From Deltaproteobacteria bacterium (lineage in GTDB: Bacteria > Myxococcota_A > UBA9160 > SMWR01), in assembly GCA_031405455.1 (NCBI GenBank), contig JANNIY010000058.1, forward strand, positions 13,517 through 77,516: a stretch of DNA of 64,000 nt, written 5' to 3'. The translations under genes were made by a program, and so were the position numbers. Shown here in pieces: positions 12,189-62,922 of this stretch (its first letter is position 1; each line of letters opens with the position of its first letter). Below the pieces are notes generated by a model, which was given only the letters and a program-made list of their open reading frames with translations, did not search any database and was not told where the DNA came from.

Positions 12189-12352
12189 GGAGAGCCTTCG
12201 ATGGAAGCGCGGCTCGGCTGGCGGCGCAGACTGCTGTTTACCGCCGTTCTCGTGGCGTCGCAGCGGTCTCGCTCGAGGTTCCGCTCCAGTTCCATCACCG
12301 CCTGACCGCCGGCGACCGATCGTCACGGCGAACGCTCTAACGGAGATCGAGG

Positions 12353-14258: not shown

Positions 14259-16367
<2,109 letters not shown>

Positions 16368-19180: not shown

Positions 19181-19182
19181 CC

Positions 19183-22471: not shown

Positions 22472-22514
22472 AGCTAGAAAGCCCCTGTGGCGGCGTCCTG
22501 CGCCGGCCCTGCTG

Positions 22515-35306: not shown

Positions 35307-35390
35307 TGCGGGCGCAGTATAGCCCAGGCGAGGAGCGCTCCCGCTGCGTTCGTCGACTTCGCGGGAAGGGGCGAGCTATGCTGCGCGCCC

Positions 35391-49589: not shown

Positions 49590-51125
49590 TCAGGCGCCGA
49601 TGGGAGCGTCGCTCGTAAAGCCCTGCTGCCGGTCTGGCGTCGAGGGCGCAAGGGGAGCGCCCCCCAATATCCGCACGGCCCAATGCGCGAGCACGAGCGG
49701 CATCGCCGCGAAGAAGACGGCGTTCACGGCCCCGATCAGCGCCGCCTGAAGCGACTGCGGAAACGCGAACAACACCACGAGGGCGAGAATTTGCGTGGGC
49801 AGCGTGGCGTTCTTCGCGAAGAGCAATTCGTGCAATACCCGCATGAACACGCCCATGAGCAACATCCCGATCACGATGCCGGGCCAGCCGAAGTTGAAAT
49901 AGAGTTCGCCCACCCAGGTTGGTGCCGTGCTCGAGCGGATGTCGGGGCCGCCCGCGAAATGGTCGGTGACCCACTGCCCTGTCGTCATGTCCGGCTTGTC
50001 GGCCCAAACGATGCGTGGGACATAGGACAACGCGATGTAGCCGAGCGTCCAGCCGCCCTGGAAGGGCACCTGGCCGGGGCATTCGCGGAGGATCACGGAC
50101 AGGATCCCGAGTCCGTCGGAGCGCCGGCTCGTCGCCTCGACGCCTTGCCGGAGGTAGTCGCCGAACTGGTAGCTCCCGGCAAACTTCGTGATGCGCGAGA
50201 TCATCTCGACGGGCCGCCGCAGTGCGTAGGCGGCGCCCTTTGTATTGTCGCGCAGGATCACGCGCCGTTGGAACTCGGCGATCGGGTAGATGATGATCAC
50301 CGCGGCGAAGGCAACCATGACCCAACGGATCGCGATCCGGCGCTTGACGACGATGTACGCGACCGCCACCACGGCGGGGGGCGAGAGCAGCGCCGTCTTC
50401 GAACCGCCGAGGAAGTTGAGCGCCATCGAGGGCGGGATCAGCAGCACCATCATCCACCACGCGGCGCGCGAGCCGTGGCGTAGATAGACGAGCATCAGCA
50501 ACGCGAGTCCGACGTAGGTCGAGTTGCTGATCGTCCCGATGAAGCCGCTGCCGACGCGCGCGGGGAGGAACCCGAACGCGCTGGCGAAGAAGATGATCCA
50601 GCCGACCGGGATCATGAGGGCCGCGACGGTCAGCGCCGCGCGGTACGTCCAGTCGCGCTGCGGGACCAGGAAGCTGCCTCGAAACAGGTTCCCGATGGGC
50701 AGGCAGTAACCGGCCAGCATCACGCCCAGACCAGCGAGCGCAGCGATCTGACCGTAGATGATGTCGGCAGGCCGGATCGCCCGCAGATCGAGAACTCCGA
50801 GGTCGTCGATCTGGACGACGGAGGTGGCTGAAAAGTAGGTCGTGAAGACGGACACGGTGAAGTTCATCACGAAGCTGAGGCAGGTGAACGTGAGCAGCAG
50901 GTGCCGGCGGTCGTAGCGTCGGCCGACATCGAGAATCAGCGGGACGAGCGCGATGCTTCCCGACAGCAGGGCCAGCGCGACCAGGGTGGTGTCATTCCCG
51001 CGCACGCCGAGCGCCATCCCCAGGCCGATGCCGAACACGACCAGGAGTGGCAGCGCCACCAGCATCATGAGGGACAGCTGCGGGCGACCGAGATCCCGGC
51101 TCGGCTCGGCGATCGCTTGCGTCAC
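49590..51125 (-). CDS. Wzy / O-antigen-ligase-like polytopic membrane protein
   Basis: About 511 aa with at least 10 TM segments. A Wzy_C-like segment (YLRHGSRAAWWMMVLL) is followed by a large extracytoplasmic loop. The GTG start at 51125 overlaps the upstream stop (GTGA). The remainder of track ORF 49590..53264 is shadow. Confidence 0.75.
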   Translation of the reverse strand: MTQAIAEPSRDLGRPQLSLMMLVALPLLVVFGIGLGMALGVRGNDTTLVALALLSGSIALVPLILDVGRRYDRRHLLLTFTCLSFVMNFTVSVFTTYFSATSVVQIDDLGVLDLRAIRPADIIYGQIAALAGLGVMLAGYCLPIGNLFRGSFLVPQRDWTYRAALTVAALMIPVGWIIFFASAFGFLPARVGSGFIGTISNSTYVGLALLMLVYLRHGSRAAWWMMVLLIPPSMALNFLGGSKTALLSPPAVVAVAYIVVKRRIAIRWVMVAFAAVIIIYPIAEFQRRVILRDNTKGAAYALRRPVEMISRITKFAGSYQFGDYLRQGVEATSRRSDGLGILSVILRECPGQVPFQGGWTLGYIALSYVPRIVWADKPDMTTGQWVTDHFAGGPDIRSSTAPTWVGELYFNFGWPGIVIGMLLMGVFMRVLHELLFAKNATLPTQILALVVLFAFPQSLQAALIGAVNAVFFAAMPLVLAHWAVRILGGAPLAPSTPDRQQGFTSDAPIGA

Positions 51126-53257
51126 GCCGGGATCCGCTCCACGCGCCCGGACTCGAGCGACGCGAGCAGCGCGAAGCACGCGTGAGAAACGCCGGCGAGG
51201 TGGGCGAGCGGGAAGGGGGAGGCCTTGCCATCGCGCAGGGCTGCGAGCACTTCGTTCAGCGCCGCGACCTGCCCCTTGTCCTGATTCACGGTCCGCAGCG
51301 TCGCTGCTCCGCTCACGTGGGTGGTCTTGAAGTTCTCGCAGCGGGCCGTGCGGCCCTCCGCCGAAAGCTCGAAGCGCTCCTTCGGCAGATCGCTCGAGGC
51401 CATGGCCAGATACTCGAGGCTGGCGGTCGAGCCGTCGGCGAAGCCGAGCAGCGCCACCACGGAATCGTCGACCTCGGGGTCGCGTCCGAGCCGCCGCGCG
51501 AAGACGCTCGTGGGCGGAGCGCCGACGAAGTACGTGCACAGGTCGATGAAATGGCAGACCTCGCCGACGACGCGGCCGCCGCCGACCGCGGGGTCGAGGA
51601 TCCAGGTCCCGCGCGGGGGAGGGCCCGCTGCGATGCTGTAGCGGATGGCGAGCGGTGCGCTGCGCTTTTCGAAAGCCGCGGCGATCGCGCGCGAATGCGC
51701 CGAGAAGCGGCGGTTGTAGCCGACGGCCAGAAAGCCGTCGGTCTCGCGCGCGGCATCGATCACTTCGCCCACCTGTTCCGCATCGAGGCCCACCGGCTTC
51801 TCGAGCCACACGGCTTTGCCCGCACGCAGGGCGCGGCTCGCGAGCGCGGCGTGGCTGTCGTGGCGCGTGGCGATGACGACGAGATCGACCTCGTCCGAGC
51901 TGAACACCGCATCGGCATCGGTGCCGCAGACCGCGAAGCCGAATTTTTCGGCGCTGAGCCGGGCGGAGGCGCCGCTCGCTGTCACGAGCTGCACCCGGCG
52001 CGCCTCGGGGCGGGCCGCGAGCGCCGGCAGCAAGACGGACTTCGCATAGTTTCCGGCGCCGACGAAGGCGACGCCGACGCTCGCGCGTTTGCCGGGCCGC
52101 GGCGCTGCTACCCGTTGCTCGCGCGCGCGCGACGGCGTCGCGCTGTAGCGGAAGATCGCGGCGAGCGAGCGGCGCGTGCCCTGGGCGAGATCCTCGTAGA
52201 CCGTCACCGCTTCCTCGAACGGGAAGATCTCCGTATCGAGCGCCGCGGGCTGCACCGTGCCGGCGGCGACGAGGGCGAGGAAGGCCTGCAGGTTGCGGTT
52301 TTCCGTCCAGCGCACGTAGGCGAGCGGATAATCGAGGCCTTCTTCTTCGTAGGCGCGGTCGTAGCGGCCGGGGCCGTACGACGTGCTCATGCGCAGCTCG
52401 AGCTCCTTTTCGTAGAAGGCGCGGCGGTCGAGATCGAGCGCGGTGGCGCCGACCGATGCGATCCGACCCTTGTGGCGACACAACTCTGCGGCGAGTGCGA
52501 TCGGCGCCGAGCTCTCGGAAGCGGCGGTCACGAGCGCGAAGTCGACGCCGTGTCCGCCGGTTGCGCTGTTGCGCCAGGCGCGGTGATCGCCGCCGGGCGC
52601 CGCGCCCCAGGCGGCTCCCTGTGCGAGCGCCTGCTGCACGCGCGCCGGATCGAGATCGATGCCGAGCACGCGGCAGCCGCCCGCGCGCAACAACTGACTC
52701 GCGAGCTGCCCGATCAGCCCGAGCCCGATCACGGCGCCGATCTCGCCGAGCGTCGGGTTCGCGACGCGGATTCCCTGGAGCGCGATCGCTCCGAGCGTCG
52801 CGAACGCGGCCTGCTCGAGGGCGACGCCCTCCGGCACGCTGACGCAGAGGTTCTCGGGCACCGACACGATCTCGGCGTGATTCGCGAAACCCGCGCCCGC
52901 GCAGGCCACGCGGTCGCCGGGCGAGAAGCCGACGACGCCCGGGCCCACGGCCTCGACCACGCCCGCGCAGGAGTAGCCGAGAGGCTGCGGCGCATCCAGG
53001 CGGTTGCGCACCGCGCGATAGGTGGGGAGGGGGCCCTCCTGGCGCAGTTTGCGCGCCACCTGCTTGACGAGATCCGGCCGGCTGCGTGCCTTGCCGAGCA
53101 GCGATTTGCGCGCGAAATCGAGCGCCATCTTCTCGGTCCCCGGTGAGACGACGGAGAAGGCGTTGCGCACGATCACCTGTCCGGCGACGGGCGCGGGCGC
53201 CGGCACCTCGAGCAACTCGAGCGAGCCCGATCCGGGGATTTGCACGATCTGTTTCAC
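51122..53257 (-). CDS. bi-domain oxidoreductase (MDR zinc-type alcohol dehydrogenase fused to Gfo/Idh/MocA)
   Basis: The N-terminal half has SPGTE, GYSCAGVV, and VIGLGLIGQL as its Rossmann motif. The C-terminal half has VGVAFVGAGNYA, EKP and GYNRRF, typical of Gfo/Idh/MocA. GTG start at 53257. Confidence 0.88.
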   Translation of the reverse strand: MKQIVQIPGSGSLELLEVPAPAPVAGQVIVRNAFSVVSPGTEKMALDFARKSLLGKARSRPDLVKQVARKLRQEGPLPTYRAVRNRLDAPQPLGYSCAGVVEAVGPGVVGFSPGDRVACAGAGFANHAEIVSVPENLCVSVPEGVALEQAAFATLGAIALQGIRVANPTLGEIGAVIGLGLIGQLASQLLRAGGCRVLGIDLDPARVQQALAQGAAWGAAPGGDHRAWRNSATGGHGVDFALVTAASESSAPIALAAELCRHKGRIASVGATALDLDRRAFYEKELELRMSTSYGPGRYDRAYEEEGLDYPLAYVRWTENRNLQAFLALVAAGTVQPAALDTEIFPFEEAVTVYEDLAQGTRRSLAAIFRYSATPSRAREQRVAAPRPGKRASVGVAFVGAGNYAKSVLLPALAARPEARRVQLVTASGASARLSAEKFGFAVCGTDADAVFSSDEVDLVVIATRHDSHAALASRALRAGKAVWLEKPVGLDAEQVGEVIDAARETDGFLAVGYNRRFSAHSRAIAAAFEKRSAPLAIRYSIAAGPPPRGTWILDPAVGGGRVVGEVCHFIDLCTYFVGAPPTSVFARRLGRDPEVDDSVVALLGFADGSTASLEYLAMASSDLPKERFELSAEGRTARCENFKTTHVSGAATLRTVNQDKGQVAALNEVLAALRDGKASPFPLAHLAGVSHACFALLASLESGRVERIPA

Positions 53258-54729
53258 GCGCCACTCCGCTCGATGAAGCCGCGCCAGCCGGGATGTGGCA
53301 CGAAGGTTCGTTCGGCCGTCAGATCGCCGAGCGCACGGCGCGTCGCCGCGAAGTCGCTCGGATCGACTTCCCAGACCTCGACGTCCGCTGGCGAGCGCAC
53401 CGCCGTGATGCGCAAGCCGGTGTCGCGCATCGGCTCCCACAGCTTGGGCAGTCGCTGCTCATCGAAGCCCATCAGCCGAACGGCCGCCAGATCGAGTGCC
53501 ACGGGATCGGTCGCCGCGAGCACGACGCCGAGCGGCACGTCGATCGGCGCGAGCGGCCCCTCGCCCTCGCCGGCGATCACGCCATCGATCACGCTGAGCA
53601 CGCAGCGCACCGGAGCGGGCGCGTCGAAATGCGCGCCGTGTGCATCGCTGTAGTAGAGGCAGCGGTTCAGATCGACGCACATGCGCCAGGTGGTGCGGTT
53701 CCCATGCCAATTGCCGCTGCGGATGAAAGCGTCGCCGCGCGCGGCGGTTTCGGCGCGTCGCACGAGCCGGATCGCCCGCGCGCCGATTCCCCGCTTGAGC
53801 AAGCCGCGGGCCAGCTCCGTCGCGAAGCTGCGGGCGCGGTCCAGCACGGACCTGCCGGGGTACTCGTCCCCGCCCTCGGCCGCCGATCCGACGCAATGAT
53901 GCGGCAGCAGATTCTTGTCGCCGTTGATTCCGACGAGATTCTTGAGCGCGAGCGTCACACCCGTCTTCTTGTGGGTCTTGAGCTTCGGCAGGTTCACCAC
54001 GAGATCGGCCGAGAGCACGGTCTCCGAGATCAGATACTCGTTGCGGCCGTCCAGATGGTGATGGGCGGTCGGGCCCGGGTCGTAATCGGCGCCGCGAAAG
54101 CGGTGCGGATCGATGCCCGAGCCGGTGAACGCGCTGTGCTCCGCCAGATCGACGAGCCGGTAGCCCCTGGGATCGCCGGGCAGCTGCCGCCGCTCGACGA
54201 TCACGCCGTCGCGGTAGACGACGCATTCGCGGCGCAGGTCGATCAGCTCGAGCTCGCGCCCGAGCGTCTCCTCGTAGAAGCGCACCAGCACGTCGAGGCC
54301 TGCGAGGCGCCGGATCTCCGCCCAGTCGCAGTCGTGCTGCGGCGCCTCGGCGATCGCGACCGAACCCTCGGCGCCGGCGGCGAGGAAGGCGTAGTCGGCC
54401 ACGGCGCGCAGGATCGAGCCGTGCGTGATCACGGAGGCCAGGGTTCCGCCGGGGGCGGGATTCCAGTGGCGGATGAAATTGGGCTTCAACACGATCCGCC
54501 GGCCTCGCGACACGAGTGCGCCGAGCGGATTCCACTGAGGTGTGTCGAAGTGTTCGGCATCGAGGCCGAGACCGCGCAGCGCGGCGCGCACCGCGGCATA
54601 AATCGGGTTTGGCGTGGAACCGAAGTCCGGGAGCAGGCCAGCGAGCTCGGGAAAGAGCTTGCCGGGGCCGAACGGCGGCTCGAGGCCTGCGTAGCTCGGC
54701 TGCGTGCGCGCGAGGCCGACGCGGATCAT
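53254..54729 (-). CDS. DUF362 domain-containing protein
   Basis: VLKPNF, ITHGSILRAV, VVNLPKLKTHKKTGVTLALKNLVG and VIDGVIAGEGEGP match the DUF362 pattern. ATGA overlap upstream and GTGA downstream. Confidence 0.8.
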   Translation of the reverse strand: MIRVGLARTQPSYAGLEPPFGPGKLFPELAGLLPDFGSTPNPIYAAVRAALRGLGLDAEHFDTPQWNPLGALVSRGRRIVLKPNFIRHWNPAPGGTLASVITHGSILRAVADYAFLAAGAEGSVAIAEAPQHDCDWAEIRRLAGLDVLVRFYEETLGRELELIDLRRECVVYRDGVIVERRQLPGDPRGYRLVDLAEHSAFTGSGIDPHRFRGADYDPGPTAHHHLDGRNEYLISETVLSADLVVNLPKLKTHKKTGVTLALKNLVGINGDKNLLPHHCVGSAAEGGDEYPGRSVLDRARSFATELARGLLKRGIGARAIRLVRRAETAARGDAFIRSGNWHGNRTTWRMCVDLNRCLYYSDAHGAHFDAPAPVRCVLSVIDGVIAGEGEGPLAPIDVPLGVVLAATDPVALDLAAVRLMGFDEQRLPKLWEPMRDTGLRITAVRSPADVEVWEVDPSDFAATRRALGDLTAERTFVPHPGWRGFIERSGA

Positions 54730-56120
54730 CGCAGGCTGCGTCCGACGGCCGACTTCACGGCTCGGAACTTGCCGTTGGCCTCGCGCGGAATTGCGTCCAG
54801 GTAGACGAACTCGATGCGGATCGCGTCGCCCAGCCGCGAGCGGATCTCCTTGAGCAGCGAGCGTTCGCTCGCGTCGCTCCAGCTCCGTCTGCGCACTATG
54901 CGGACCTCCACGGCGTTCGCCGTTTCCTGGACGATCTGTGCTTCGGCGACGTCGAGCTGCTCCTTGAAGATGTGATCGAGGCGGCCGATCAGTCGTCCAT
55001 CCGGGGTCATGATGTAGTCCTCGATGCGGCCGTCGATGTCGAGGAAGACGTCGCCGGGCCGTCCGCACGGGCACGGCGCCTTCGCGCGCGTGCCGACGTC
55101 ACCGACCCGATAGCGAATCAGCGGCGTGGCGTCGTTGGCGAAGCCCGTGACGAGCAGCGGCCCGCGCTCCCAATCTTCGTTGGCTTCCTCGACCTCGACC
55201 TCGACGATGCCGAACTCCATGTCGACATGCAGCCGGCGCTCGCGGCACTCGGTCATCGAGACGCAGAATTCGCTCACGCCGTAGCGGTCGCGCACCGGCG
55301 CACCGAAGGCCTGCTCGATCGTCTCGCGCTGGAACGCGAGCAGCGATTCCGAGGAGGTGAACACCGCGGCGAGGCGACCGGGCGCGAGCGGGCGCCCTGC
55401 GTCGAGCAGCGCGCGCGCCGCCAGGTGGATCGACGAAGGATAGCCCTGCACATAGCGCGCCGGCGCCGCATGGATGCCGTCCACGTAGGCGCGCAGGTTC
55501 GCGGGTGTCATGTGGTACAGCGAAAAAAGTGTCTGACCGGCCCAATGGTTGACGCGCCAGAAGGGAGGGCGCGTCGTGCGGAAGGGGACGATGAGCTGCC
55601 CGGAAAACGTGAGGTTGGGATCGCTCGGCTCGACGCCGAAGCTGCGGCGTTGGCGCCAGAAGCTCGCGAACTCCTCCGCGAGGGCCTCTGGCGTGTACCA
55701 CAGGGGAAGCGCCATCCCCGTCGTGCCGCTGGTCTTGCCGCGGATCAGGCGATCGCGCGGCAGATCGCGCGCGATGAACTCCTCGCAGCGATCGCGGTAG
55801 CTGGCTTTTTCCAGCGTCGGCCAGGCTGCGAGTGTGCGCGCGACGGCTTCGCGCGGTTCGCGCGCCTCACACGTCGGCGGCAGGTCGCGGTAGTACGGAA
55901 CATGGCGGCGGGCGCGCTCGGCGAGCCGGAACAGGCGATCGCGCTGGATCGCGTGCAGCGCTGCGAGCGGTCCCGCTCCGCTCTTCTCCCAGGCTGCGAG
56001 CGTGCGGTGGAAATGCGGCGTGAAGCGCAGGCGCGCGCGCTGCCTCCCCGCCCAGCTGCACGCGAGATTCTGCGCGAAGACCGGCAGCACCGGGTAGATC
56101 CTGTCCTGGAAGCTGCCCAC
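54726..56120 (-). CDS. adenylate-forming enzyme, phenylacetate-CoA ligase (PaaK/CapK) family
   Basis: HVPYYR, the AMP-binding loop TSGTTGMALP, YG.SE, and the C-terminal ANGKF lysine region. Start assigned to GTG 56120; the ATG at 56216 would overlap epsI by 83 nt. Confidence 0.83.
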   Translation of the reverse strand: MGSFQDRIYPVLPVFAQNLACSWAGRQRARLRFTPHFHRTLAAWEKSGAGPLAALHAIQRDRLFRLAERARRHVPYYRDLPPTCEAREPREAVARTLAAWPTLEKASYRDRCEEFIARDLPRDRLIRGKTSGTTGMALPLWYTPEALAEEFASFWRQRRSFGVEPSDPNLTFSGQLIVPFRTTRPPFWRVNHWAGQTLFSLYHMTPANLRAYVDGIHAAPARYVQGYPSSIHLAARALLDAGRPLAPGRLAAVFTSSESLLAFQRETIEQAFGAPVRDRYGVSEFCVSMTECRERRLHVDMEFGIVEVEVEEANEDWERGPLLVTGFANDATPLIRYRVGDVGTRAKAPCPCGRPGDVFLDIDGRIEDYIMTPDGRLIGRLDHIFKEQLDVAEAQIVQETANAVEVRIVRRRSWSDASERSLLKEIRSRLGDAIRIEFVYLDAIPREANGKFRAVKSAVGRSLR

Positions 56121-56133
56121 TTCGCCCGCCGCC

Positions 56134-56796
56134 TCAGTCGGGCAGGAAGCCGGGGAATTGCGCCACGATGCGCGGAGCCAGATCCCGGAACTCTGCGTCG
56201 GCCACGGCTTCGCCATCGCGCGGGATCGGGATCGTGAAGCGCACGAGCGTGCCGTCGGTGCGGCTGCGGAGCGCGCGATCGATGCCGACGTAGAGGATCT
56301 TCTGCCAATCCTCGGAGATCACGCGGCCCTGCTGCTGATACCAGTAATAGACGAGTTGGCGCGCTTCGCCCTTTGCGATCAGCAGGCGCTTCACGCGCGC
56401 GGGGCCATGCGGCAGACCGGGCAGGTCGAGCGCAACGGTCTCGGTGTGGATCAGATCCCAGCCCGAGCCCGGAAGACAGTGCGCCGGCGGGTGGATCGAG
56501 TTCTCGCCGGATCCGCCTCCCTCTTCGCGCACCTGGCGGGCGTGATAACCGAGGTAGACGCCCACCAGCCCCCACGGCTCCTCGCGTGTGAAATCGCACA
56601 GCAGATAGTCCGTGACGCCGAGGTTGGCCTCGATGTCCGCCCCCATCGCAAGCGACTCCCTGCACGACCAGTCGCCGAATTCGCGCGGGAATGATTCGAA
56701 GGTCTGGCGCTGCGGGATCACGGCGTCCGTCGCCAGGAAGTGATAGGCGTAGAAGTTCATTGCGAGAAAGGCGAGGGCGGCGGCGAGTTTCGTCAC
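56134..56796 (-). CDS. epsI: EpsI family protein (exosortase-associated)
   Basis: 220 aa with an N-terminal anchor (LAAALAFLAMNFYAYHF), then SFPREFGDW, YLGYH, HPPAHCLPGSGW and YYWY, typical of EpsI. The GTG start overlaps the exosortase stop (GTGA). Confidence 0.8.
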   Translation of the reverse strand: MTKLAAALAFLAMNFYAYHFLATDAVIPQRQTFESFPREFGDWSCRESLAMGADIEANLGVTDYLLCDFTREEPWGLVGVYLGYHARQVREEGGGSGENSIHPPAHCLPGSGWDLIHTETVALDLPGLPHGPARVKRLLIAKGEARQLVYYWYQQQGRVISEDWQKILYVGIDRALRSRTDGTLVRFTIPIPRDGEAVADAEFRDLAPRIVAQFPGFLPD

Positions 56797-57707
56797 GCGC
56801 GGGCTCCCGCGCTCGACCGCGGTTTCCGGTAGCGCCGGAACAGCACCTGCAGCAGCGACGCCTCGACCAGCAGCAACGCGAACGCCAATCCGAAGGTGAA
56901 CAGCCCTTCCGTCTGGTGGATCACGCCCTGCGCCGCCTTCTCGCCGAGGTTGTGCGTCAGATACCCGGTGAGCGCCACCCGGAAGGCGTTCACGAGAATC
57001 GCGATCGGAATCGCCGAGAGCACGATCACGATGCGCTCGATCGCGCTCTTGCGGAAAAAGTAGGCGAATACGACCGCGAGCGTTCCGAGCGCCATCAGCG
57101 AGCGCAGTCCGCTGCATGCCTCCGCGACGAAGAGCGGCGTACTGGCCAGATGGATGATGTTGCCCTCGCGCAAGGCGGGGATCGAGAGCCAGTGCAGCCA
57201 CTCGACCGCCAGGTCGGCGGCGATCAACTGAAGCGGGAAGGCGATCACGTTCACCAGCGATTGCGGCAGCGGCACCATCAGGAACAAGAACAGCAGGGGA
57301 AAGCGCAGGATCCGGAAGATCGGCGGACCGAGCAGCAGGAGCACCAGCCCGATCAGCGTCAGCACGAATGCCGTGCGCATCGCCATCAGTTCGACGCCGA
57401 GCCGCCCGACCATCAGCGCGAGCGTTCCGAGGGCGAGCGGCAGCACTCCCCACCAGCTCGGTTCGATGCGCGCGCGGCGCAGCTTCCCGCGCCGCTCCCA
57501 GGCGAAGTAGAGCGCGAGCGGACCGACGATGAAGCCGTGCGAGTAGTCCGGTACGGCCTTCCAGTGCAGCACCATGTAATAGAGAATCGGCGCAAAAATC
57601 CCGAGCGCGAGCATGGCCGTCACAGCCATGCTCGCGAGCGAGAATCTGCGCGCCGAGGCGGCGGCTGCGACCGTGGGCGTCCCCACGTCCATGGTCAAAT
57701 CACGCAC
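56793..57707 (-). CDS. exosortase (EpsH/Xrt family transpeptidase)
   Basis: DYSHGFIVGPLALYFAW, the catalytic Cys in FVAEACSGLRSLMA, Arg in LVNAFRV, and a late His (GVIHQTEG), with about 8 TM segments. Start is GTG 57707 or ATG 57692. Confidence 0.9.
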   Translation of the reverse strand: MRDLTMDVGTPTVAAAASARRFSLASMAVTAMLALGIFAPILYYMVLHWKAVPDYSHGFIVGPLALYFAWERRGKLRRARIEPSWWGVLPLALGTLALMVGRLGVELMAMRTAFVLTLIGLVLLLLGPPIFRILRFPLLFLFLMVPLPQSLVNVIAFPLQLIAADLAVEWLHWLSIPALREGNIIHLASTPLFVAEACSGLRSLMALGTLAVVFAYFFRKSAIERIVIVLSAIPIAILVNAFRVALTGYLTHNLGEKAAQGVIHQTEGLFTFGLAFALLLVEASLLQVLFRRYRKPRSSAGARA

Positions 57708-57749
57708 CCCCCTCCGCGAAGCAGCGTGAGCGCCGCGCGATCGCGCCTC

Positions 57750-57935
57750 TCAGAAGAGCGCGTAGATGAACGGCGCTACCGCGGAGCCTTCCGTCAGCAC
57801 GATCAGGACCGAGAGCAGCAGCATCGTGACCACGATCGGCCCGAGCCACCACTTCTTCCGAATCTTCATGAACGACCAGAGCTCGTTGAAGATCGTGAAC
57901 TTGGCGAAAAAACCACTCGAAGAACGCGCCATCAT
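57750..57935 (-). CDS. small membrane protein, DUF5989-like
   Basis: 61 aa. The KIRKKWWLGPIVVTMLLLSVLIVLTEG pattern is the one I associate with the DUF5989 mini-proteins that accompany NodU-type carbamoyltransferases. Confidence 0.7.
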   Translation of the reverse strand: MMARSSSGFFAKFTIFNELWSFMKIRKKWWLGPIVVTMLLLSVLIVLTEGSAVAPFIYALF

Positions 57936-57993
57936 CTTCTCCTCGCCTCGCCGGGGGGCGGCGGGCCGTTTGCTGCGCCCCTGCGGCGCGGTT

Positions 57994-59733
57994 TCAGTCG
58001 AGCTGGTAGCGCTCGCGCCAGTCGAAGTTTTCCTCGAACTTGGGCTGCTCGGGCTTGAGCAGGATCTGGTTGCCGAGCACGAGCACGTCCAATTCCGTGC
58101 GCATGAAGCACAGATAGGCGTCCTCGGGCGAGCACACGATCGGCTCGCCGCGCACGTTGAACGACGTGTTGATGATCACGGGACAGCCCGTCTGCCGATC
58201 GAACTCGCGGATCAGGTCGTAGAACTCGGCGTGCGAGTCGCGGGTCACGGTTTGGATCCGCGCCGAGCCGTCCACGTGCGTGACCGCCGGGATCTCGCGG
58301 CCCTCCCGCACCTGGCAGACGAGCAGCATGTAGGGGCTCTCGCGGTCGATGTCGAACCACTCGGAAGCCTTCTCCGCGAGCACGGCGGGTGCAAACGGCC
58401 GGAAGCTCTCCCGGAACTTGATCTTCAGGTTCACGCGCTTCCAGTTCTCGCGATTGCGCGCGTCGGCCAGGATGCTGCGGCTGCCGAGCGAGCGCGGGCC
58501 CCACTCCATGCGCCCCTGGAACCAACCGACGACGGCCTGTTCCTCGCCCAGCTGGCGAGCGGTTTCGCGGATCATCTCGTCGCGCGACAGCGTGCGGTAG
58601 CGCGCGCCGCGGGCATCGAGGAAGCCGCGAATCGCCTCATCCGAGTAGGCCGGCCCCCAATAGGCGTGATCCATGCGGAAGGCGCGGGGCTTGCCGAGCA
58701 CCGCGTTGTGGGCGAAGAGCGCGGCGCCGAGCGCCCCGCCCGCGTCGCCGGCGGCGGGCTGCACCCAGAGATTCTCGAACGGGCCCTCACGCACGATGCG
58801 CCCGTTCGCGACGCAATTGAGCGCCACGCCGCCCGCCATGCAGAGATTCTTCATTCCGGTCTTCCGGTGGAGATCGCGGACCATGCTCAACACGATCTCT
58901 TCGGTGACGTGCTGGACGCTCGCGGCCATGTCCCAGTGGAACTCGTCCATCTTGCTCTCGCCATCGCGGCGCGGGTGGCCGAACAGCTTCGCGAAACGCG
59001 CGTTCGTCATGGTGAGGCCGTAGTCGTACGCGAAGTATTTCATGTTCAGCTTGAACGATCCGTCCGCGCGCAGATCGACGAGTTCTTCCAGGATCTTCGC
59101 TGCGTACTTCGGCTTTCCATAGGGCGCTGCGCCCATCACCTTGTATTCGGCGCTGTTGACCTTGAAGCCCAGATAGTAGGTGAAGGCGCTGTAGAGCAGC
59201 CCGAGCGAGTGGGGGAAGCGGATCTCGTTCGTCAGCTCGAAGGAGTTGCCGCGTCCGACGCCCTGGGTCGTGGTCGCCCATTCGCCGACGCCGTCGCAGG
59301 TGAGGATCGCAGCCTCTTCGAACGGCGAGGGCAGGAACGCCGAGGCAGCATGTGATTGGTGGTGTTCGGCAAAGAGCACTTCGCCCTCGAAGCCGAGCTT
59401 GTCGCGGATCTGGTTCGGGACCCAGAGCTTCTCCTTGAGCCACACCGGGATCGCCTTCGTGAAGGACGGCAGCGAGCGCGGAAAGGTCGCGAGGTAGGTG
59501 ATCAGCATGCGCTCGAGCTTGATGAACGGCTTGTCGTAGAACACGACGTAGTCGAGGTCGCCGACCGCGAGTCCGGCTGCTTCCAGGCAGTACTTTGTCG
59601 CCTGCGCCGGTAGGTCGGGATCGTGGCGCTTGCGCGTGAAACGCTCTTCGTGGGCCGCCGCGACGAGCTTGCCGTCGCACAGCAATGCGGCCGCCGAATC
59701 GTGATAGAAACCCGAGATGCCGAGGATGTTCAT
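57994..59733 (-). CDS. carbamoyltransferase (NodU/CmcH family)
   Basis: MNILGISGFYHDSAAALLCDGKLVAAAHEERFTRKRHD, FAEHHQSHAASAF, MAGGVALNCVAN and a C-terminal YrdC-like/Kae1-like carbamoyl-AMP domain (NTSFNVRGEPIVCSP). Confidence 0.93.
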   Translation of the reverse strand: MNILGISGFYHDSAAALLCDGKLVAAAHEERFTRKRHDPDLPAQATKYCLEAAGLAVGDLDYVVFYDKPFIKLERMLITYLATFPRSLPSFTKAIPVWLKEKLWVPNQIRDKLGFEGEVLFAEHHQSHAASAFLPSPFEEAAILTCDGVGEWATTTQGVGRGNSFELTNEIRFPHSLGLLYSAFTYYLGFKVNSAEYKVMGAAPYGKPKYAAKILEELVDLRADGSFKLNMKYFAYDYGLTMTNARFAKLFGHPRRDGESKMDEFHWDMAASVQHVTEEIVLSMVRDLHRKTGMKNLCMAGGVALNCVANGRIVREGPFENLWVQPAAGDAGGALGAALFAHNAVLGKPRAFRMDHAYWGPAYSDEAIRGFLDARGARYRTLSRDEMIRETARQLGEEQAVVGWFQGRMEWGPRSLGSRSILADARNRENWKRVNLKIKFRESFRPFAPAVLAEKASEWFDIDRESPYMLLVCQVREGREIPAVTHVDGSARIQTVTRDSHAEFYDLIREFDRQTGCPVIINTSFNVRGEPIVCSPEDAYLCFMRTELDVLVLGNQILLKPEQPKFEENFDWRERYQLD

Positions 59734-59761
59734 CGCTTCGCTCCGATTGCGCAGCGGCCGT

Positions 59762-60010
59762 CTAGGTGGAGAGCTTCGCGCGGTCGAGATCGGGTTTCGC
59801 AGAATCTGAAGTGACCCAGGCGCTCGAGTCCTCGCGCAAACCGCGCTTGTGGAGGAGATCCAGCCGCGCCAAGCTGCCGCCGAGCGCGATCGGTCCGATC
59901 AGGAAGAAATAGAACAGCGCCAGGATCACCAGGGTCTGCACGAAGCCAAAGCGCGCCGTGATCAGCATCCAGCCCCGGAACAAACGCTTGTGCGGCGAGA
60001 GCCGTTCCAT
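59762..60010 (-). CDS. SxtJ-family small membrane protein, copy 1
   Basis: 82 aa: MERLSPHKRLFRGWMLITARFGFVQTLVILALFYFFLIGPIAL. GAGGAAG lies upstream. The longer track ORF 59762..60520 is read-through of shadow. Confidence 0.75.
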   Translation of the reverse strand: MERLSPHKRLFRGWMLITARFGFVQTLVILALFYFFLIGPIALGGSLARLDLLHKRGLREDSSAWVTSDSAKPDLDRAKLST

Positions 60011-60021
60011 CGTCTTCCTCG

Positions 60022-60273
60022 TCAGCCTGTCGCGAGCTTCGCACGCTCGAGGTCGGGTTTCGCAGAATCTGATGTGACCCAGGCGCTCGCGCCCGCGCGC
60101 AGTCCGCGCTTGTCGAGGAAGTCGACCCTGGCGAGGGCGCTGCCGAGTGCGATGGGTCCGATCAACAATAGGTAGAACAGCGTTAGGATCACCAGGGTCT
60201 GCACGAAGCCAAAGCGCGCCGTGATCAGCATCCAGCCCCGGAACAATCGCATGTGCGGCGAGAGCCGTTCCAT
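60022..60273 (-). CDS. SxtJ-family small membrane protein, copy 2
   Basis: 83 aa, 68/82 identical to copy 1 in my hand alignment. AGGGGAAG lies upstream of the ATG. Confidence 0.75.
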   Translation of the reverse strand: MERLSPHMRLFRGWMLITARFGFVQTLVILTLFYLLLIGPIALGSALARVDFLDKRGLRAGASAWVTSDSAKPDLERAKLATG

Positions 60274-60468: not shown

Positions 60469-60484
60469 TGCGAGAAGCATGCCA
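60469..60484 (-). promoter_or_regulatory. candidate sigma-54 (-24/-12) promoter facing the sxtJ-carbamoyltransferase-exosortase operon
   Basis: The minus strand reads TGGCATGCTTCTCGCA, with GG-N10-GC spacing and 12/16 matches to TGGCACG-N4-TTGCW. It lies about 195 bp upstream of the ATG at 60273. Confidence 0.5.
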
Positions 60485-60760: not shown

Positions 60761-62227
60761 ATGGAGCAGGGATCGTCGATGCAAACTGAGAAAGAACAAC
60801 GGCGCGCACTGGACCGCTTCCGCGTGCTCGTGATCGACGACGACCCGGGCGTGCGCGACTACATGGAGGCCTTGGTGTCTCGCCAGGGCTACGAAGTCTT
60901 CGCCGTCGCCGATGGCGAGCAGGCGCTCGCCTCGCTCGACGAAACCAAGCCCGATCTCGTCACGCTCGACGTCGTGCTGCCCGGCATGGACGGTCTCGCG
61001 ACGCTCAGTGCGCTGAAGCAGCGCTTGCCCGAGGTGCCGGTCGTGATGCTCTCGGGCCACGGTCAGGCGCGCAACATCGTCGAGGCCATGCGCCTGGGCG
61101 CCTCGGACTTCCTGCGCAAGCCGTTCGAAGTCGAGGAACTCGAGCTGGCCTTCCAGAAGGCGCTCGAAAAGCGCGCGCTCAAACAGGAAGTCGAGCGCCT
61201 GCGCGGCCGGGCGCGCTCCGAGACCGAGCTGCTGCTGCTGTGCGGGGACAACCCGAAGATGAAGGAGGTTCGCGACATCATCGAGCAGGTCGCCGACACC
61301 GACATCACGGTGCTCGTGCGCGGCGAGAGCGGGACGGGCAAGGAACTCGTCGCCCGCACGCTGTTCCAGCTCTCGGGCCGCAACAATCAACCCTTCGTCA
61401 AGGTGAACTGTGCAGCCCTGCCGTCGGAGCTGCTCGAGAGCGAGCTATTCGGGTTCGAGAAGGGCGCGTTCACGGGAGCGCTGAAGCGCAAACTCGGCAA
61501 GTTCGAGTACGCGAACATGGGCACGATCTTCCTCGACGAGATCAGTGAGATGCACCCCGGCCTGCAAGCGAAGCTGTTGCAGGTGCTCCAGGACGGCGAA
61601 TTCTCGCGGCTGGGCGGGGAGGCCGACGTGCATGTCGACACGCGCATCATCGCCGCGACCAACCGCAACCTGGAGGAAGCCGTTGCGGACGGCAGTTTCC
61701 GCGAGGACCTCTACTACCGGCTGAACGTCGTCACCGTGCACGTCCCCCCGCTGCGCGAACGCAGCGACGAGATCCCGCTGCTGGTCGACCATTTCCTGCG
61801 CAAGAACAACGAGCAGTACCACAAGAGCCTGAAGGCCCTGACGTCGTCCACCATGAACATCTTCCTCCAGTACAGCTGGCCCGGAAACGTCCGCGAACTC
61901 GAGAACATGGTCCGGCGCATGGTGGTGCTCGGGAACGAGCAGGCGGTGCTCGAAGAAATCGCCTTGCGCGCCGGCGCCGACAGCAAGGCGGCGGCGGCCA
62001 GCCAGGAGCTCGAAGTCGACACTTTGGGCGCAGATCTCGCGAAGGGCGAAGCGATAGATCTCAAGGCGGTCTCGCGACGTGCCGCTCAAGTTGCCGAGAA
62101 GCGAGTGATCGAGCGCGTGCTCCAGCAGACCCGGTGGAACCGCAAGGAGGCCGCTGAGCGACTCAAGATCAGCTACAAGGCCCTCCTCTACAAAATGAAG
62201 GAGAACGGGCTCTCCGAAGGGCGCTAG
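60761..62227 (+). CDS. sigma-54-dependent response regulator (NtrC/bEBP family), paralog of 19183..20643
   Basis: REC domain (VLVIDDDPG...TLDVVLPG...KPF), Walker A GESGTGKE, GAFTGA, and a Fis-type HTH (NRKEAAERLKISYKALLYKMK). The second ATG, at 60779, has the better Shine-Dalgarno sequence (AGGGA). Confidence 0.92.
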   Translation: MEQGSSMQTEKEQRRALDRFRVLVIDDDPGVRDYMEALVSRQGYEVFAVADGEQALASLDETKPDLVTLDVVLPGMDGLATLSALKQRLPEVPVVMLSGHGQARNIVEAMRLGASDFLRKPFEVEELELAFQKALEKRALKQEVERLRGRARSETELLLLCGDNPKMKEVRDIIEQVADTDITVLVRGESGTGKELVARTLFQLSGRNNQPFVKVNCAALPSELLESELFGFEKGAFTGALKRKLGKFEYANMGTIFLDEISEMHPGLQAKLLQVLQDGEFSRLGGEADVHVDTRIIAATNRNLEEAVADGSFREDLYYRLNVVTVHVPPLRERSDEIPLLVDHFLRKNNEQYHKSLKALTSSTMNIFLQYSWPGNVRELENMVRRMVVLGNEQAVLEEIALRAGADSKAAAASQELEVDTLGADLAKGEAIDLKAVSRRAAQVAEKRVIERVLQQTRWNRKEAAERLKISYKALLYKMKENGLSEGR

Positions 62228-62893: not shown

Positions 62894-62922
62894 GGAGCCG
62901 AGGCCTGATTCTGGGGGTGGGG

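What the first reader, a model, noticed from the sequence alone, without database searches (positions are those of the whole stretch)
49590..60273. Non-canonical exosortase operon: ten tightly coupled genes linking carbamoylation, an adenylate-forming ligase, DUF362 and a Wzy/ligase-like protein to exosortase-EpsI
All ten minus-strand genes are contiguous, and the layout implies one translationally coupled unit.
- Gaps: 11, 28, 58, 42 and 13 bp.
- Four junctions are 4-nt start/stop overlaps: GTGA at 56793-56796, ATGA at 54726-54729, GTGA at 53254-53257 and GTGA at 51122-51125.

The exosortase has the Cys (AEACSG), Arg (NAFRV) and His signature and is followed by EpsI, as in PEP-CTERM systems. 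Its neighbours are not the ones I associate with the classical exosortase A locus (chain-length determinant, tyrosine kinase, secretion ATPase, deacetylase, FemAB-like).

Instead it sits between two groups. Upstream is a NodU-type carbamoyltransferase with its SxtJ/DUF5989 membrane partners. Downstream is a PaaK/CapK-like ligase - DUF362 - ADH::Gfo/Idh/MocA fusion - Wzy_C/O-antigen-ligase-like set.

No ORF in the window ends in a PEP-CTERM-like sorting signal. This may be a distinct exosortase subtype system in which a carbamoylated or acyl-modified glycan is made and possibly ligated to sorted proteins by the Wzy_C-like enzyme.
Basis: partly seen in the sequence, partly recalled or inferred. 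Interest (0 to 1): 0.8.

Follow-up and report, generated by a model that had tools for sequence, protein, structure and literature searches.

The report
Myxococcota XrtA-type exosortase polysaccharide operon
This is a real ten-gene operon in an uncultured myxobacterium that places an exosortase A-like protein-sorting enzyme among sugar-modifying enzymes of a large exopolysaccharide locus; it is a lineage-specific layout of a known system, not a new kind of sorting system.

Summary
Ten contiguous minus-strand genes lie at 49590-60273, with the stated gaps and four 4-nt start/stop overlaps.

- **Exosortase subtype.** The exosortase scores 203.5 bits on the XrtA model (cutoff 208). Orthologs in the same locus architecture score 210-220, so the clade straddles the XrtA threshold.
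- **Classical XrtA partners are present.** A sigma-54 response regulator, export protein, TIGR03016 outer-membrane protein, chain-length determinant, ATPase and tyrosine kinase form a divergent operon. It starts about 550 bp upstream and is cut by the window's end.
- **Conservation.** In 42 species-level MAG loci, Xrt-EpsI is nearly always followed by the CapK-like ligase, DUF362 and ADH::GFO oxidoreductase. The carbamoyltransferase module is replaceable and the Wzy-like gene is variable.
- **The trio is not exosortase-specific.** Distant DUF362 relatives sit next to CapK-like ligases in 20 of 37 metagenome loci, none with an exosortase. They also occur fused to glycosyltransferases.
- **DUF362** models as a LarA-like fold.
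- **No sorting signal.** No PEP-CTERM tail occurs in the window or in 46 related loci.

Verdict: a divergent XrtA-type EPS locus with a mosaic operon. It is a new variant of a known kind, of modest interest.

The parts
60469..60484 (-). Sigma-54-type (-24/-12) promoter-like motif TGGCATGCTTCTCGCA, about 200 nt upstream of the first gene
   Evidence: It is the only match to TGGCAYN5TYGCW in the 64-kb window on either strand (0.24 expected). The same or a near-identical motif lies in the equivalent intergenic region of about 10 of 33 related loci. Function is inferred, not shown.
60022..60273 (-). g1, small membrane protein (83 aa), weakly SxtJ-like; tandem duplicate of g2
   Evidence: Pfam SxtJ 19.8 bits, below the 24.4 threshold. 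It is 83% identical to g2 in protein. The gene caller prefers a start at 60246.
59762..60010 (-). g2, small membrane protein (82 aa), weakly SxtJ-like
   Evidence: Pfam SxtJ 17.1 bits. A single-copy ortholog is present in 24 of 31 related loci.
57994..59733 (-). g3, NodU/CmcH-family carbamoyltransferase (579 aa)
   Evidence: Carbam_trans_N 334 bits and Carbam_trans_C 242 bits. The NodU equivalog scores only 163 against a cutoff of 1000. Present in 23 of 31 related loci.
57750..57935 (-). g4, DUF5989 small membrane protein (61 aa)
   Evidence: PF19451 84 bits. Present in 26 of 31 loci, and kept next to the exosortase without a carbamoyltransferase in L012 and L023.
56793..57707 (-). g5, exosortase, XrtA-like (304 aa)
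   Evidence: PF09721 250 bits. TIGR03109 XrtA 203.5 against a cutoff of 208; TIGR02602 202 against 105.6. Cys198, Arg243 and His264 are invariant.
56134..56796 (-). g6, EpsI (DUF3485), 220 aa; GTGA overlap with the exosortase
   Evidence: TIGR02914 90.7 bits against a cutoff of 42.8; PF11984 144.5 bits. Present in 29 of 29 related loci.
54726..56120 (-). g7, PaaK/CapK-like adenylate-forming ligase (464 aa)
   Evidence: PDB sequence hits to PaaK-like ligases: 9s3l 1e-12, AjiA1 6wuq 2.5e-12. Weak NCBIfam PaaK-type hits. CapK_C is precomputed for orthologs.
53254..54729 (-). g8, DUF362 protein (491 aa) with a LarA-like fold
   Evidence: PF04015 95 bits. AF2 model pLDDT 84.5, pTM 0.90. The top 15 Foldseek PDB hits are all LarA or LarA-like racemases. 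DUF362 and LarA/DUF2088 share Pfam clan CL0471 (PMC11770544).
51122..53257 (-). g9, bi-domain oxidoreductase: MDR/ADH domain fused to a Gfo/Idh/MocA domain (711 aa)
   Evidence: ADH_N and ADH_zinc_N at residues 86-302; GFO_IDH_MocA plus its C-terminal domain at residues 395-630. PDB hits to inositol and sugar dehydrogenases.
49590..51125 (-). g10, Wzy-type polymerase-like membrane protein (511 aa); variable among relatives
   Evidence: PF14296 27.4 bits and PF01901 27.4 bits; TIGR04370 28 bits, below its cutoff of 40. Ortholog at 67% identity only in L001; 36-38% matches in 4 of 29 GTDB loci.
60824..62227 (+). Divergent gene 1: NtrC-family sigma-54-dependent response regulator (PrsR-like)
   Evidence: TIGR02915 PEP_resp_reg 401.8 bits, below its cutoff of 502.6; NtrC 444.6 bits. 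Present in 29 of 31 related loci.
62285..62893 (+). Divergent gene 2: polysaccharide export protein (Wza/Poly_export type)
   Evidence: The best hit is TIGR03027, the XrtA/PEP-CTERM system export protein, at 154.4 bits (cutoff 180). Present in 22 of 22 loci.
62917..64000 (+). Divergent gene 3 (cut by the window end): TIGR03016-like outer-membrane protein
   Evidence: The only hit is TIGR03016, the PEP-CTERM system-associated OMP, at 32.6 bits. In relatives it is followed by TIGR03007, TIGR03015 and TIGR03018 homologs.

Best explanation
The block is the central operon of a roughly 47-kb exopolysaccharide (EPS) locus in an uncultured, high-GC Myxococcota-type bacterium. It belongs to the exosortase A (XrtA)/PEP-CTERM type of system.

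**Shown**
- Ten co-oriented, tightly packed genes.
- An exosortase with the catalytic Cys/Arg/His, plus a separately encoded EpsI.
- A divergent operon whose products best match the XrtA-system export protein, outer-membrane protein, chain-length determinant, ATPase and tyrosine kinase.
- Conservation of this layout in 42 species-level genomes.

**Inferred mechanism**
- A sigma-54 promoter about 200 nt upstream of the first gene is activated by the divergently encoded NtrC-family regulator.
- The transcript supplies four things:
  - (a) An O-carbamoyltransferase with small membrane partners, which carbamoylates a sugar of the repeat unit.
  - (b) XrtA-like exosortase with EpsI, which cleaves C-terminal sorting signals of secreted proteins encoded elsewhere in the genome.
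  - (c) A general glycan-tailoring cassette that makes or attaches a carboxylate-derived substituent or modified sugar: an adenylate-forming CapK/PaaK-like ligase, a LarA-fold DUF362 protein and a two-domain NAD(P) oxidoreductase.
  - (d) A strain-variable Wzy-type polymerase.
- Flipping, further glycosyl transfer and amidation come from the upstream part of the locus (Wzx, GT4s, AsnB).
- Export comes from the divergent operon.

The operon is therefore a mosaic of exchangeable glycan modules around a conserved Xrt-EpsI core. It is not a dedicated new sorting pathway.
For: - **Gene structure:**
- **Subtype scoring.** XrtA 203.5 against 208 for the window protein. Same-architecture orthologs score 220.5 (P0064, named exosortase A by NCBI), 215.2 (L030) and 210.0 (L016).
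- **Catalytic triad** invariant.
- **Divergent operon.** The best hits are XrtA-system models:
  - TIGR03027, 154 bits.
  - TIGR03016.
  - TIGR03007, 236 bits.
  - TIGR03015, 286 bits.
  - TIGR03018, 171 bits.
  - TIGR02915, 402 bits.
- **Synteny in relatives:**
- **Counts over 42 GTDB-species loci**:
  - EpsI 29 of 29.
  - Complete trio 22 of 29, with shuffled gene order.
  - Export protein, chain-length determinant and ATPase 22 of 22.
  - Carbamoyltransferase 23 of 31.
  - Wzy 4 of 29.
- **Module swap.** A WecB-like epimerase replaces the carbamoyltransferase module in L023, L029, L030 and L040.
- **The trio is exosortase-independent.**
  - 850 clusters (at 50% identity) of about 490-aa DUF362 relatives at E<1e-30.
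  - Fusions to GT4, GT2, PGA_cap, AsnB and a methyltransferase.
  - A CapK-like ligase is adjacent in 20 of 37 metagenome loci, ADH::GFO is also present in 5, and an exosortase in 0.
  - L109 is a Wzx-GT4-PGA_cap-CapK-DUF362-ADH::GFO locus.
- **DUF362 fold:**
- **Sigma-54 motif:**
- **Rest of the window is EPS biosynthesis:**
Against: - The window's exosortase and every XrtA-system partner score below the curated equivalog cutoffs.
- The XrtD model gives a slightly higher raw score than XrtA on both halves: 224.5 plus 158.9, totalling 383 against a cutoff of 400.
- No PEP-CTERM or other TM-plus-basic C-terminal tail was found in the window or in 46 related loci, 758 kb in all. The presence of substrates in this lineage is therefore unverified.
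- No PrsK-type kinase or PrsT was seen next to the regulator.
- The sigma-54 motif is recognisable in only about a third of related loci.
- Co-transcription is inferred from spacing, not measured.
- The chemistry assigned to the trio is inference from family membership and fold only.
Confidence: 0.72

Rival explanations
1. One reading: this is a distinct exosortase subtype system. It would have its own, still unrecognised sorting signal. The carbamoylated or acylated glycan made by the co-operonic enzymes would be the acceptor to which sorted proteins are attached.
For: - The window protein passes no subtype cutoff.
- All partner proteins are consistently below their equivalog cutoffs.
- The XrtD model outscores XrtA on both the exosortase and EpsI halves.
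- The clade is known only from MAGs, with no cultured or characterised member among the top hits.
- Xrt-EpsI and the trio are linked in 22 of 29 species despite gene-order shuffling.
- No PEP-CTERM tail lies near any of the 46 loci.
Against: - Orthologs in the same architecture exceed the XrtA cutoff, and NCBI names one of them exosortase A.
- The neighbourhood is the XrtA one.
- The trio and the carbamoyl module are general or replaceable glycan modules found without an exosortase.
- The proposed ligase is Wzy-polymerase-like and mostly absent from relatives.
- PEP-CTERM genes are usually scattered in genomes, so their absence from the locus is uninformative.
Confidence: 0.15
2. The ten genes are not one operon. 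They would be two or three adjacent units that merely share orientation inside an EPS island: the carbamoyl module, Xrt-EpsI, and the ligase-to-Wzy genes.
For: - Gaps of 58 and 42 bp flank DUF5989, and a 13-bp gap precedes the ligase.
- Relatives carry insertions of 1.2-4 kb between EpsI and the trio (L016, L023, L040).
- Relatives also exchange the upstream module. This shows that the modules are separable.
Against: - No sigma-70-like promoter or intergenic terminator-like site lies inside the block.
- Four junctions are 4-nt overlaps, conserved in relatives.
- A single sigma-54-like motif lies upstream of the whole array.
Confidence: 0.1
3. The exosortase/EpsI pair is a split XrtD (VPLPA-CTERM-specific) system rather than XrtA.
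For: The XrtD model TIGR04152 is the top-scoring model for both g5 (224.5 bits, model positions 3-250) and g6 (158.9 bits, positions 280-486). The same holds in relatives.
Against: - The summed score of 383 is below the 400 cutoff.
- Every clade member examined has two genes, not a fusion.
- All neighbouring genes best match XrtA-system families.
- No VPLPA-like tail was found.
- NCBIfam has no XrtA-type EpsI model, so the XrtD C-terminal half may simply be the closest available EpsI profile.
Confidence: 0.03

Closest known systems
Exosortase A (XrtA)/PEP-CTERM exopolysaccharide loci (Haft et al. 2006, PMC1569441; NCBIfam TIGR03109 and partner models)
   Same: - An eight-TM exosortase with the Cys/Arg/His residues.
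- A separate EpsI gene, as in Geobacter and Desulfovibrio (Table 1 of PMC1569441).
- Embedded in an EPS locus.
- A divergent or adjacent set of export protein, TIGR03016 OMP, chain-length determinant, TIGR03015 ATPase, tyrosine kinase and sigma-54 regulator.
- An AsnB-type amidotransferase and GT4s elsewhere in the locus.
   Different: - Every component scores just under the curated cutoffs.
- No FemAB-like or deacetylase gene was seen within 10 kb in relatives.
- Xrt-EpsI is co-operonic with a CapK-like ligase, DUF362 and a bi-domain oxidoreductase, and usually with a carbamoyltransferase module.
- The PEP-CTERM substrates are not verified.
SxtI-SxtJ-SxtK of the saxitoxin cluster (O-carbamoyltransferase with two small ORFs of unknown function; PMC2885083)
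   Same: A NodU/CmcH-family carbamoyltransferase flanked by an SxtJ-like small membrane protein and a DUF5989 small membrane protein. That DUF5989 corresponds to SxtK is recalled from memory, not tested here.
   Different: - The context is glycan biosynthesis, not alkaloid biosynthesis.
- The SxtJ similarity is sub-threshold.
- The SxtJ-like gene is tandemly duplicated here.
- DUF5989 can stay beside the exosortase without the transferase (L012, L023).
LarA superfamily (nickel-pincer-nucleotide 2-hydroxyacid racemases/epimerases; PMC11770544)
   Same: The DUF362 protein models as the same fold: the top 15 Foldseek PDB hits are all LarA-like. It is in the same Pfam clan, CL0471.
   Different: - Sequence identity is only 8-16% and TM-scores are 0.2-0.3.
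- It belongs to a different Pfam family, which that paper used as an outgroup.
- No larB, larC or larE gene was seen in the window.
- The cofactor and reaction are unknown.
CapK/PaaK-type adenylate-forming ligases of capsule and O-antigen loci
   Same: Membership of the PaaK-like ANL subfamily (PDB 9s3l, 6wuq, 6siw) and location in a surface-polysaccharide locus.
   Different: - No substrate is known.
- It is not the TIGR03098 acyl-CoA ligase of the classical XrtA accessory set.
- Here it is paired with DUF362, a pairing seen in 20 of 37 unrelated glycan loci.

Membership tests
Exosortase A (XrtA, TIGR03109) | Score at or above the curated cutoff (208 bits) of the XrtA model | tested here: not met
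   The window protein scores 203.5 bits. Orthologs in the same locus architecture score 206.5-207.7 (L001-L003), 204.3 (L039), 210.0 (L016), 215.2 (L030) and 220.5 (P0064). The clade straddles the cutoff.
Exosortase A (XrtA, TIGR03109) | Exosortase/archaeosortase catalytic Cys, Arg and His, and the general family signature | tested here: met
   TIGR04178 signature 68 bits against a cutoff of 23; TIGR02602 202 bits against 105.6. C198, R243 and H264 are invariant in the alignment.
Exosortase A (XrtA, TIGR03109) | EpsI domain fused to, or encoded next to, the exosortase | tested here: met
   g6 scores 90.7 bits on TIGR02914 against a cutoff of 42.8 and overlaps the exosortase by 4 nt. Present in 29 of 29 relatives.
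Exosortase A (XrtA, TIGR03109) | XrtA-system partner genes nearby: TIGR03015 ATPase, TIGR03007 chain-length determinant, TIGR03018 kinase, TIGR03027 export protein, TIGR03016 OMP and TIGR02915 regulator | tested here: inconclusive
   All are present as best hits. Three lie in the window and the rest follow by synteny in L001-L003. Each is below its equivalog cutoff: 286 against 324.5; 236 against 279; 171 against 231; 154 against 180; 47 against 91; 402 against 503.
Exosortase A (XrtA, TIGR03109) | Multiple PEP-CTERM (TIGR02595) substrate proteins in the same genome | not testable with these tools
   No whole genome is available. No PEP-CTERM-like tail was found in the 64-kb window or in 46 related loci. 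This does not address the rest of the genome.
VPLPA-CTERM exosortase XrtD (TIGR04152) | A fused exosortase-EpsI protein scoring at least 400 bits | tested here: not met
   There are two separate genes. They score 224.5 plus 158.9, or 383 bits. No VPLPA tail was found.
NodU (NF041651) | Score at or above 1000 bits | tested here: not met
   163 bits. The protein is a member of the broader Carbam_trans_N/C family only.
O-antigen ligase / Wzy_C (PF04932; TIGR03097 XrtA-associated O-glycosylation ligase) | A match to the Wzy_C or TIGR03097 model | tested here: not met
   No hit at E<0.01. The only hits are the Wzy polymerase models PF14296 and PF01901, and TIGR04370 below its cutoff.
LarA superfamily (DUF2088) | Sequence membership of DUF2088/Lar_N, and NPN-cofactor residues and biosynthesis genes | tested here: not met
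   Pfam assigns DUF362, not DUF2088. Only fold-level similarity was found. Cofactor residues were not mapped, and no lar genes were seen in the window.

The most novel reading that the evidence does not exclude
Two readings remain open.

1. The uncultured Myxococcota clade could be a separate exosortase subtype with an unrecognised sorting signal.
2. Independently, the CapK-like ligase, the ~490-aa LarA-fold DUF362 protein and the bi-domain oxidoreductase could form a widespread, uncharacterised glycan-tailoring pathway. It might install a 2-hydroxyacid-derived acyl or amide substituent. In this clade its product would be the EPS feature to which exosortase substrates are attached.
Probability: 0.1. 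Interest if true: 0.7.

Novelty: new variant of a known kind. Interest (0 to 1): 0.3.

Why it matters
- **Annotation.** A whole uncultured clade of XrtA-type systems sits right at the curated model cutoffs. At least 42 species-level MAGs and thousands of metagenome proteins are involved. Pipelines therefore name its members inconsistently: 'exosortase A', 'exosortase' or 'exosortase/archaeosortase family protein'.
- **Biology.** The more useful by-product is the pairing of a CapK-like ligase with a ~490-aa LarA-fold DUF362 protein, often with a bi-domain oxidoreductase. It is a common and completely uncharacterised cassette of surface-polysaccharide loci. Working out its chemistry would annotate hundreds of gene families.
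- **Sorting.** The exosortase aspect itself adds little that is new about how protein sorting works.

Tried and rejected
- **Exact-sequence look-ups** of the window's exosortase and carbamoyltransferase found nothing. The source genome is not in the collection.
- **Plasmid tblastn** with the DUF362 protein gave no match.
- **PDB sequence searches.** The DUF362 protein, the exosortase and EpsI gave nothing meaningful.
- **Literature.**
  - No paper links exosortase with DUF362.
  - The only two texts holding both 'exosortase' and 'carbamoyltransferase' are two versions of one methanotroph study that uses the second word once. I did not read them.
  - A Geobacter paper gave no neighbourhood information.
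- **A cultured relative.** Querying with the exosortase of a 'Geobacter'-labelled MAG returned no cultured or named Geobacter protein among the 120 listed hits. Beyond its own small group, the hits overlap those of the window's own exosortase.
- **Sorting signals.** Regex and hydropathy scans for PEP-CTERM, VPLPA, PDSG or any TM-plus-basic tail returned one spurious hit in a non-coding frame of the window, and none in the related loci.
- **Split-XrtD idea:** considered and rejected; see the rival explanations.
- **Frameshift artefact.** I considered whether the Xrt/EpsI junction is a frameshifted fusion. I rejected this because the relatives with independent gene calls (L001-L004) keep two genes with the 4-nt overlap.

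Full report
**1. Observation**

The window has about 70% G+C, so raw ORF lists are crowded with spurious frames. I trained a codon log-likelihood caller on ten long genes of the window. The only difference is that it prefers 60246 to 60273 as the start of the first small gene.

- The four start/stop overlaps read GTGA, ATGA, GTGA and GTGA at the stated coordinates.
- The five gaps are 11, 28, 58, 42 and 13 bp.
- Nine of the ten starts have a Shine-Dalgarno-like motif 7-15 nt upstream.
- No sigma-70-like promoter lies inside the block. There are 3 terminator-like sites against 6.7 expected, and none lies in an intergenic gap.
- Independent gene calls on related contigs keep the same 4-nt overlaps.

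**2. What the ten genes are**

| Gene | Coordinates | Product | Key evidence |
|---|---|---|---|
| g1, g2 | 60022-60273, 59762-60010 | Small membrane proteins, weakly SxtJ-like | Pfam SxtJ 19.8 and 17.1 bits, below the 24.4 threshold |
| g3 | 57994-59733 | Carbamoyltransferase | Carbam_trans_N/C 334 and 242 bits; NodU equivalog 163 against a cutoff of 1000, so NodU family, not NodU |
| g4 | 57750-57935 | DUF5989 | 84 bits |
| g5 | 56793-57707 | Exosortase | PF09721 250 bits |
| g6 | 56134-56796 | EpsI | TIGR02914 90.7 bits against 42.8 |
| g7 | 54726-56120 | PaaK/CapK-like ligase | PDB 9s3l 1e-12, AjiA1 2.5e-12 |
| g8 | 53254-54729 | DUF362 | 95 bits |
| g9 | 51122-53257 | ADH(MDR)::Gfo/Idh/MocA fusion | Both domain sets found |
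| g10 | 49590-51125 | Membrane protein | Only Wzy-polymerase models, about 27 bits |

- g1 and g2 are tandem duplicates: 83% identical in protein and 87% in DNA. Relatives have one copy.
- g10 does not hit Wzy_C, an O-antigen ligase model, or the XrtA-associated TIGR03097.
- The exosortase Cys198, Arg243 and His264 are invariant across ten clade members.

**3. Subtype test**

Against all NCBIfam exosortase and archaeosortase models:

| Model | Score (bits) | Cutoff | Note |
|---|---|---|---|
| General exosortase | 202 | 105.6 | The only model passed |
| XrtA | 203.5 | 208 | 4.5 bits short |
| XrtD | 224.5 | 400 | Model of a fused protein |
| XrtW | 199 | 425 | |

EpsI adds 158.9 bits on the C-terminal half of XrtD, giving a sum of 383.

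Orthologs that sit in the same gene order score as follows on XrtA:

| Ortholog | XrtA score (bits) |
|---|---|
| L003 | 206.5 |
| L001 | 206.8 |
| L002 | 207.7 |
| L039 | 204.3 |
| L016 | 210.0 |
| L030 | 215.2 |
| P0064 | 220.5 |

NCBI names P0064 'exosortase A' and another clade member 'exosortase/archaeosortase family protein'. The clade therefore straddles the XrtA cutoff. It does not lie clearly outside it.

**4. The 'missing' classical neighbours are next door**

About 550 bp upstream of g1, on the other strand, an operon begins:

- An NtrC-family sigma-54 response regulator at 60824-62227. It scores 402 bits on PEP_resp_reg, below the 503 cutoff.
- An export protein at 62285-62893. Its best hit is the XrtA/PEP-CTERM export model TIGR03027 (154 bits against 180).
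- The start of a TIGR03016-like outer-membrane protein at 62917, cut by the window's end.

In relatives with 71-91% identical exosortases the same operon continues:

- The XrtA chain-length determinant TIGR03007, 236 bits against 279.
- The XrtA-associated ATPase TIGR03015, 286 bits against 324.5.
- The XrtA-associated tyrosine kinase TIGR03018, 171 bits against 231.
- A Glycos_transf_4 gene.

All are best hits to XrtA-system families and all fall a little under the cutoffs. This is the pattern of a divergent lineage, not of a different system.

The rest of the window from about 16.6 kb onward is also EPS biosynthesis. It holds the following:

- A heparinase II/III-like protein, a WcaI-like GT4 and WecB.
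- Heptose-pathway genes and ManA.
- A Wzx-type flippase, several GT4 and GT2 genes, and FkbM methyltransferases.
- An AsnB that resembles the XrtA/PEP-CTERM amidotransferase, and a second kinase/sigma-54 regulator pair.

**5. Conservation**

A scan of one genome per GTDB species gave 42 loci. All are MAGs. Their titles read Myxococcota, Myxococcales, Deltaproteobacteria or delta proteobacterium, with a few labelled Spirochaetales or Proteobacteria and two labelled Geobacter.

tblastn with the window's proteins gave these counts:

| Component | Loci with it / loci with enough flank |
|---|---|
| EpsI | 29 of 29 |
| CapK-like ligase | 27 of 29 |
| DUF362 | 25 of 29 |
| ADH::GFO | 24 of 29 |
| All three of the trio | 22 of 29 |
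| Wzy-like gene | 4 of 29 (36-38% identity) |
| Carbamoyltransferase | 23 of 31 |
| DUF5989 | 26 of 31 |
| Export protein, chain-length determinant, ATPase | 22 of 22 |

- The trio appears in two gene orders: CapK-DUF362-ADH::GFO, or DUF362-ADH::GFO-CapK. Insertions of 1-4 kb sometimes follow EpsI.
- Where the carbamoyltransferase is absent (L023, L029, L030, L040), a WecB-like UDP-GlcNAc 2-epimerase occupies the slot upstream of the exosortase.
- In L012 and L023, DUF5989 stays beside the exosortase without the transferase.

The conserved core is therefore Xrt-EpsI plus the trio. The first four genes and the last gene are exchangeable.

**6. The trio is not exosortase-specific**

- A full-library HMMER search with g8 found 850 clusters (at 50% identity) at E<1e-30. 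Most of those listed are about 490-510 aa and match over nearly their full length.
- Longer members are fusions to GT4 (one also carrying AsnB), GT2, PGA_cap or a methyltransferase.
- I fetched 80 metagenome loci encoding distant relatives, 31-44% identical to the reference sequence of the query alignment. Among the 37 loci of at least 9 kb:
  - 20 have a CapK-like ligase nearby on the same strand, mostly directly adjacent;
  - 5 also have the bi-domain oxidoreductase;
  - none has an exosortase or EpsI.
- One such locus reads Wzx - GT4 - unknown - PGA_cap - CapK-like - DUF362 - ADH::GFO - unknown - DUF354.

The cassette is thus a general glycan-locus module.

The AlphaFold model of g8 is confident (pLDDT 84.5, pTM 0.90).

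- Its 15 best PDB matches are all lactate, malate or LarA-like racemases, with probability 0.75-1.0.
- TM-scores are only 0.19-0.29, as can happen when a two-domain protein is modelled in a different hinge state.
- The result agrees with DUF362 and LarA/DUF2088 sharing Pfam clan CL0471 (PMC11770544).

I infer a tailoring route. The ligase would activate a carboxylate, either a uronic acid or a hydroxy-acid. The LarA-fold protein and the two-domain dehydrogenase would prepare the sugar or the acid. This chemistry is inference only.

**7. Regulation**

The only match in the whole window to the sigma-54 core TGGCAYN5TYGCW is TGGCATGCTTCTCGCA at 60469-60484. It lies on the operon's strand, about 200 nt upstream of g1 (0.24 matches expected per window). 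The same motif recurs in the equivalent spacer of about ten relatives. Together with the divergent NtrC-family regulator, this suggests sigma-54-dependent activation. It is not shown.

**8. Substrates**

No PEP-CTERM, VPLPA, PDSG or generic TM-plus-basic tail occurs in the window or in the 46 related loci fetched first, 758 kb in all. PEP-CTERM genes are usually dispersed in genomes (PMC1569441; 10.1101/2023.06.07.544157). This neither supports nor refutes the presence of substrates, and no whole genome was accessible.

**9. Comparison and verdict**

- **Classification.** The system works like, and almost certainly is, an XrtA-type PEP-CTERM/EPS locus. Separate xrt and epsI genes also occur in Geobacter and Desulfovibrio (Table 1 of PMC1569441).
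- **What is new.** The lineage-specific operon places Xrt-EpsI with a general CapK/DUF362/oxidoreductase cassette and usually an SxtI/J/K-like carbamoylation module. SxtJ and SxtK are uncharacterised small ORFs beside the saxitoxin carbamoyltransferase (PMC2885083).
- **Literature.** I found no paper describing this arrangement, within the limits of a keyword search.
It is nearly met: the window protein is 4.5 bits short of the XrtA cutoff, orthologs exceed it, and the XrtA neighbourhood is present.
- **Rating.** New variant of a known kind; interest 0.3.
- **Residual novel reading.** A separate subtype with its own signal, or a glycan-acceptor role for the trio's product, keeps about 10% probability.

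Noticed in passing
window 59762-60273 (-): The two small SxtJ-like genes are a recent tandem duplication: 83% identical in protein and 87% in DNA over 244 nt. Related genomes carry a single copy.
   Followed up: yes
window 60469-60484 (-): A sigma-54 -24/-12-like motif, TGGCATGCTTCTCGCA, lies in the divergent intergenic region. It is the only match in the 64-kb window and recurs in about 10 of 33 related loci.
   Followed up: partly
L012:3592-3825, L023:~9770-9913: DUF5989 stays immediately upstream of the exosortase in loci that lack the carbamoyltransferase. This hints that this small membrane protein may be tied to the exosortase as much as to carbamoylation.
   Followed up: partly
L048-L124 (metagenome loci); proteins P0256, P0264, P0268, P0292, P0380, P0384, P0388: A ~490-aa DUF362 subfamily (850 clusters at E<1e-30) lies near a CapK-like ligase, mostly directly adjacent, in 20 of 37 exosortase-free loci. 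It also occurs fused to GT4, GT2, PGA_cap, AsnB or a methyltransferase. This looks like an uncharacterised, widespread glycan-biosynthesis cassette.
   Followed up: partly
window 53254-54729 (-): The DUF362 protein models confidently (pLDDT 84.5). Its best PDB fold matches are all LarA-type nickel-pincer racemases. No larB, larC or larE gene was noticed in the window.
   Followed up: partly
window 18005-20643 (+): A second two-component pair, a histidine kinase plus a sigma-54 response regulator (PEP_resp_reg 386 bits, below cutoff), sits at the other edge of the EPS region.
   Followed up: no
window 20729-24841 (+): A heparinase II/III-like protein, a WcaI-family GT4 and WecB lie in a row, followed by heptose-pathway genes (GmhB, HddA-like kinase, GmhA) and ManA. 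These are further precursor and tailoring genes of the same locus.
   Followed up: no
window ~35391-37244 (+) and 34191-35375 (-): An AsnB-type amidotransferase resembles the XrtA/PEP-CTERM amidotransferase (TIGR03108, 398 bits against a cutoff of 817). My simple gene caller fused it with upstream sequence that overlaps a minus-strand GT4 gene.
   Followed up: partly
window 12001-14188: G+C dips to 63%, against about 70% elsewhere. The dip lies over an AT3-family acyltransferase gene (12371-14188) next to housekeeping genes (LigA at 14259-16274). This may be a horizontally acquired insert.
   Followed up: no
L038, L039: Two MAGs labelled Geobacter (51-53% G+C) carry Xrt-EpsI-CapK-DUF362 with 58-64% identity. 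Beyond their own small group, their exosortase's nearest relatives overlap the hits of the window's own exosortase rather than cultured Geobacter. This suggests lateral transfer or mislabelled bins.
   Followed up: partly
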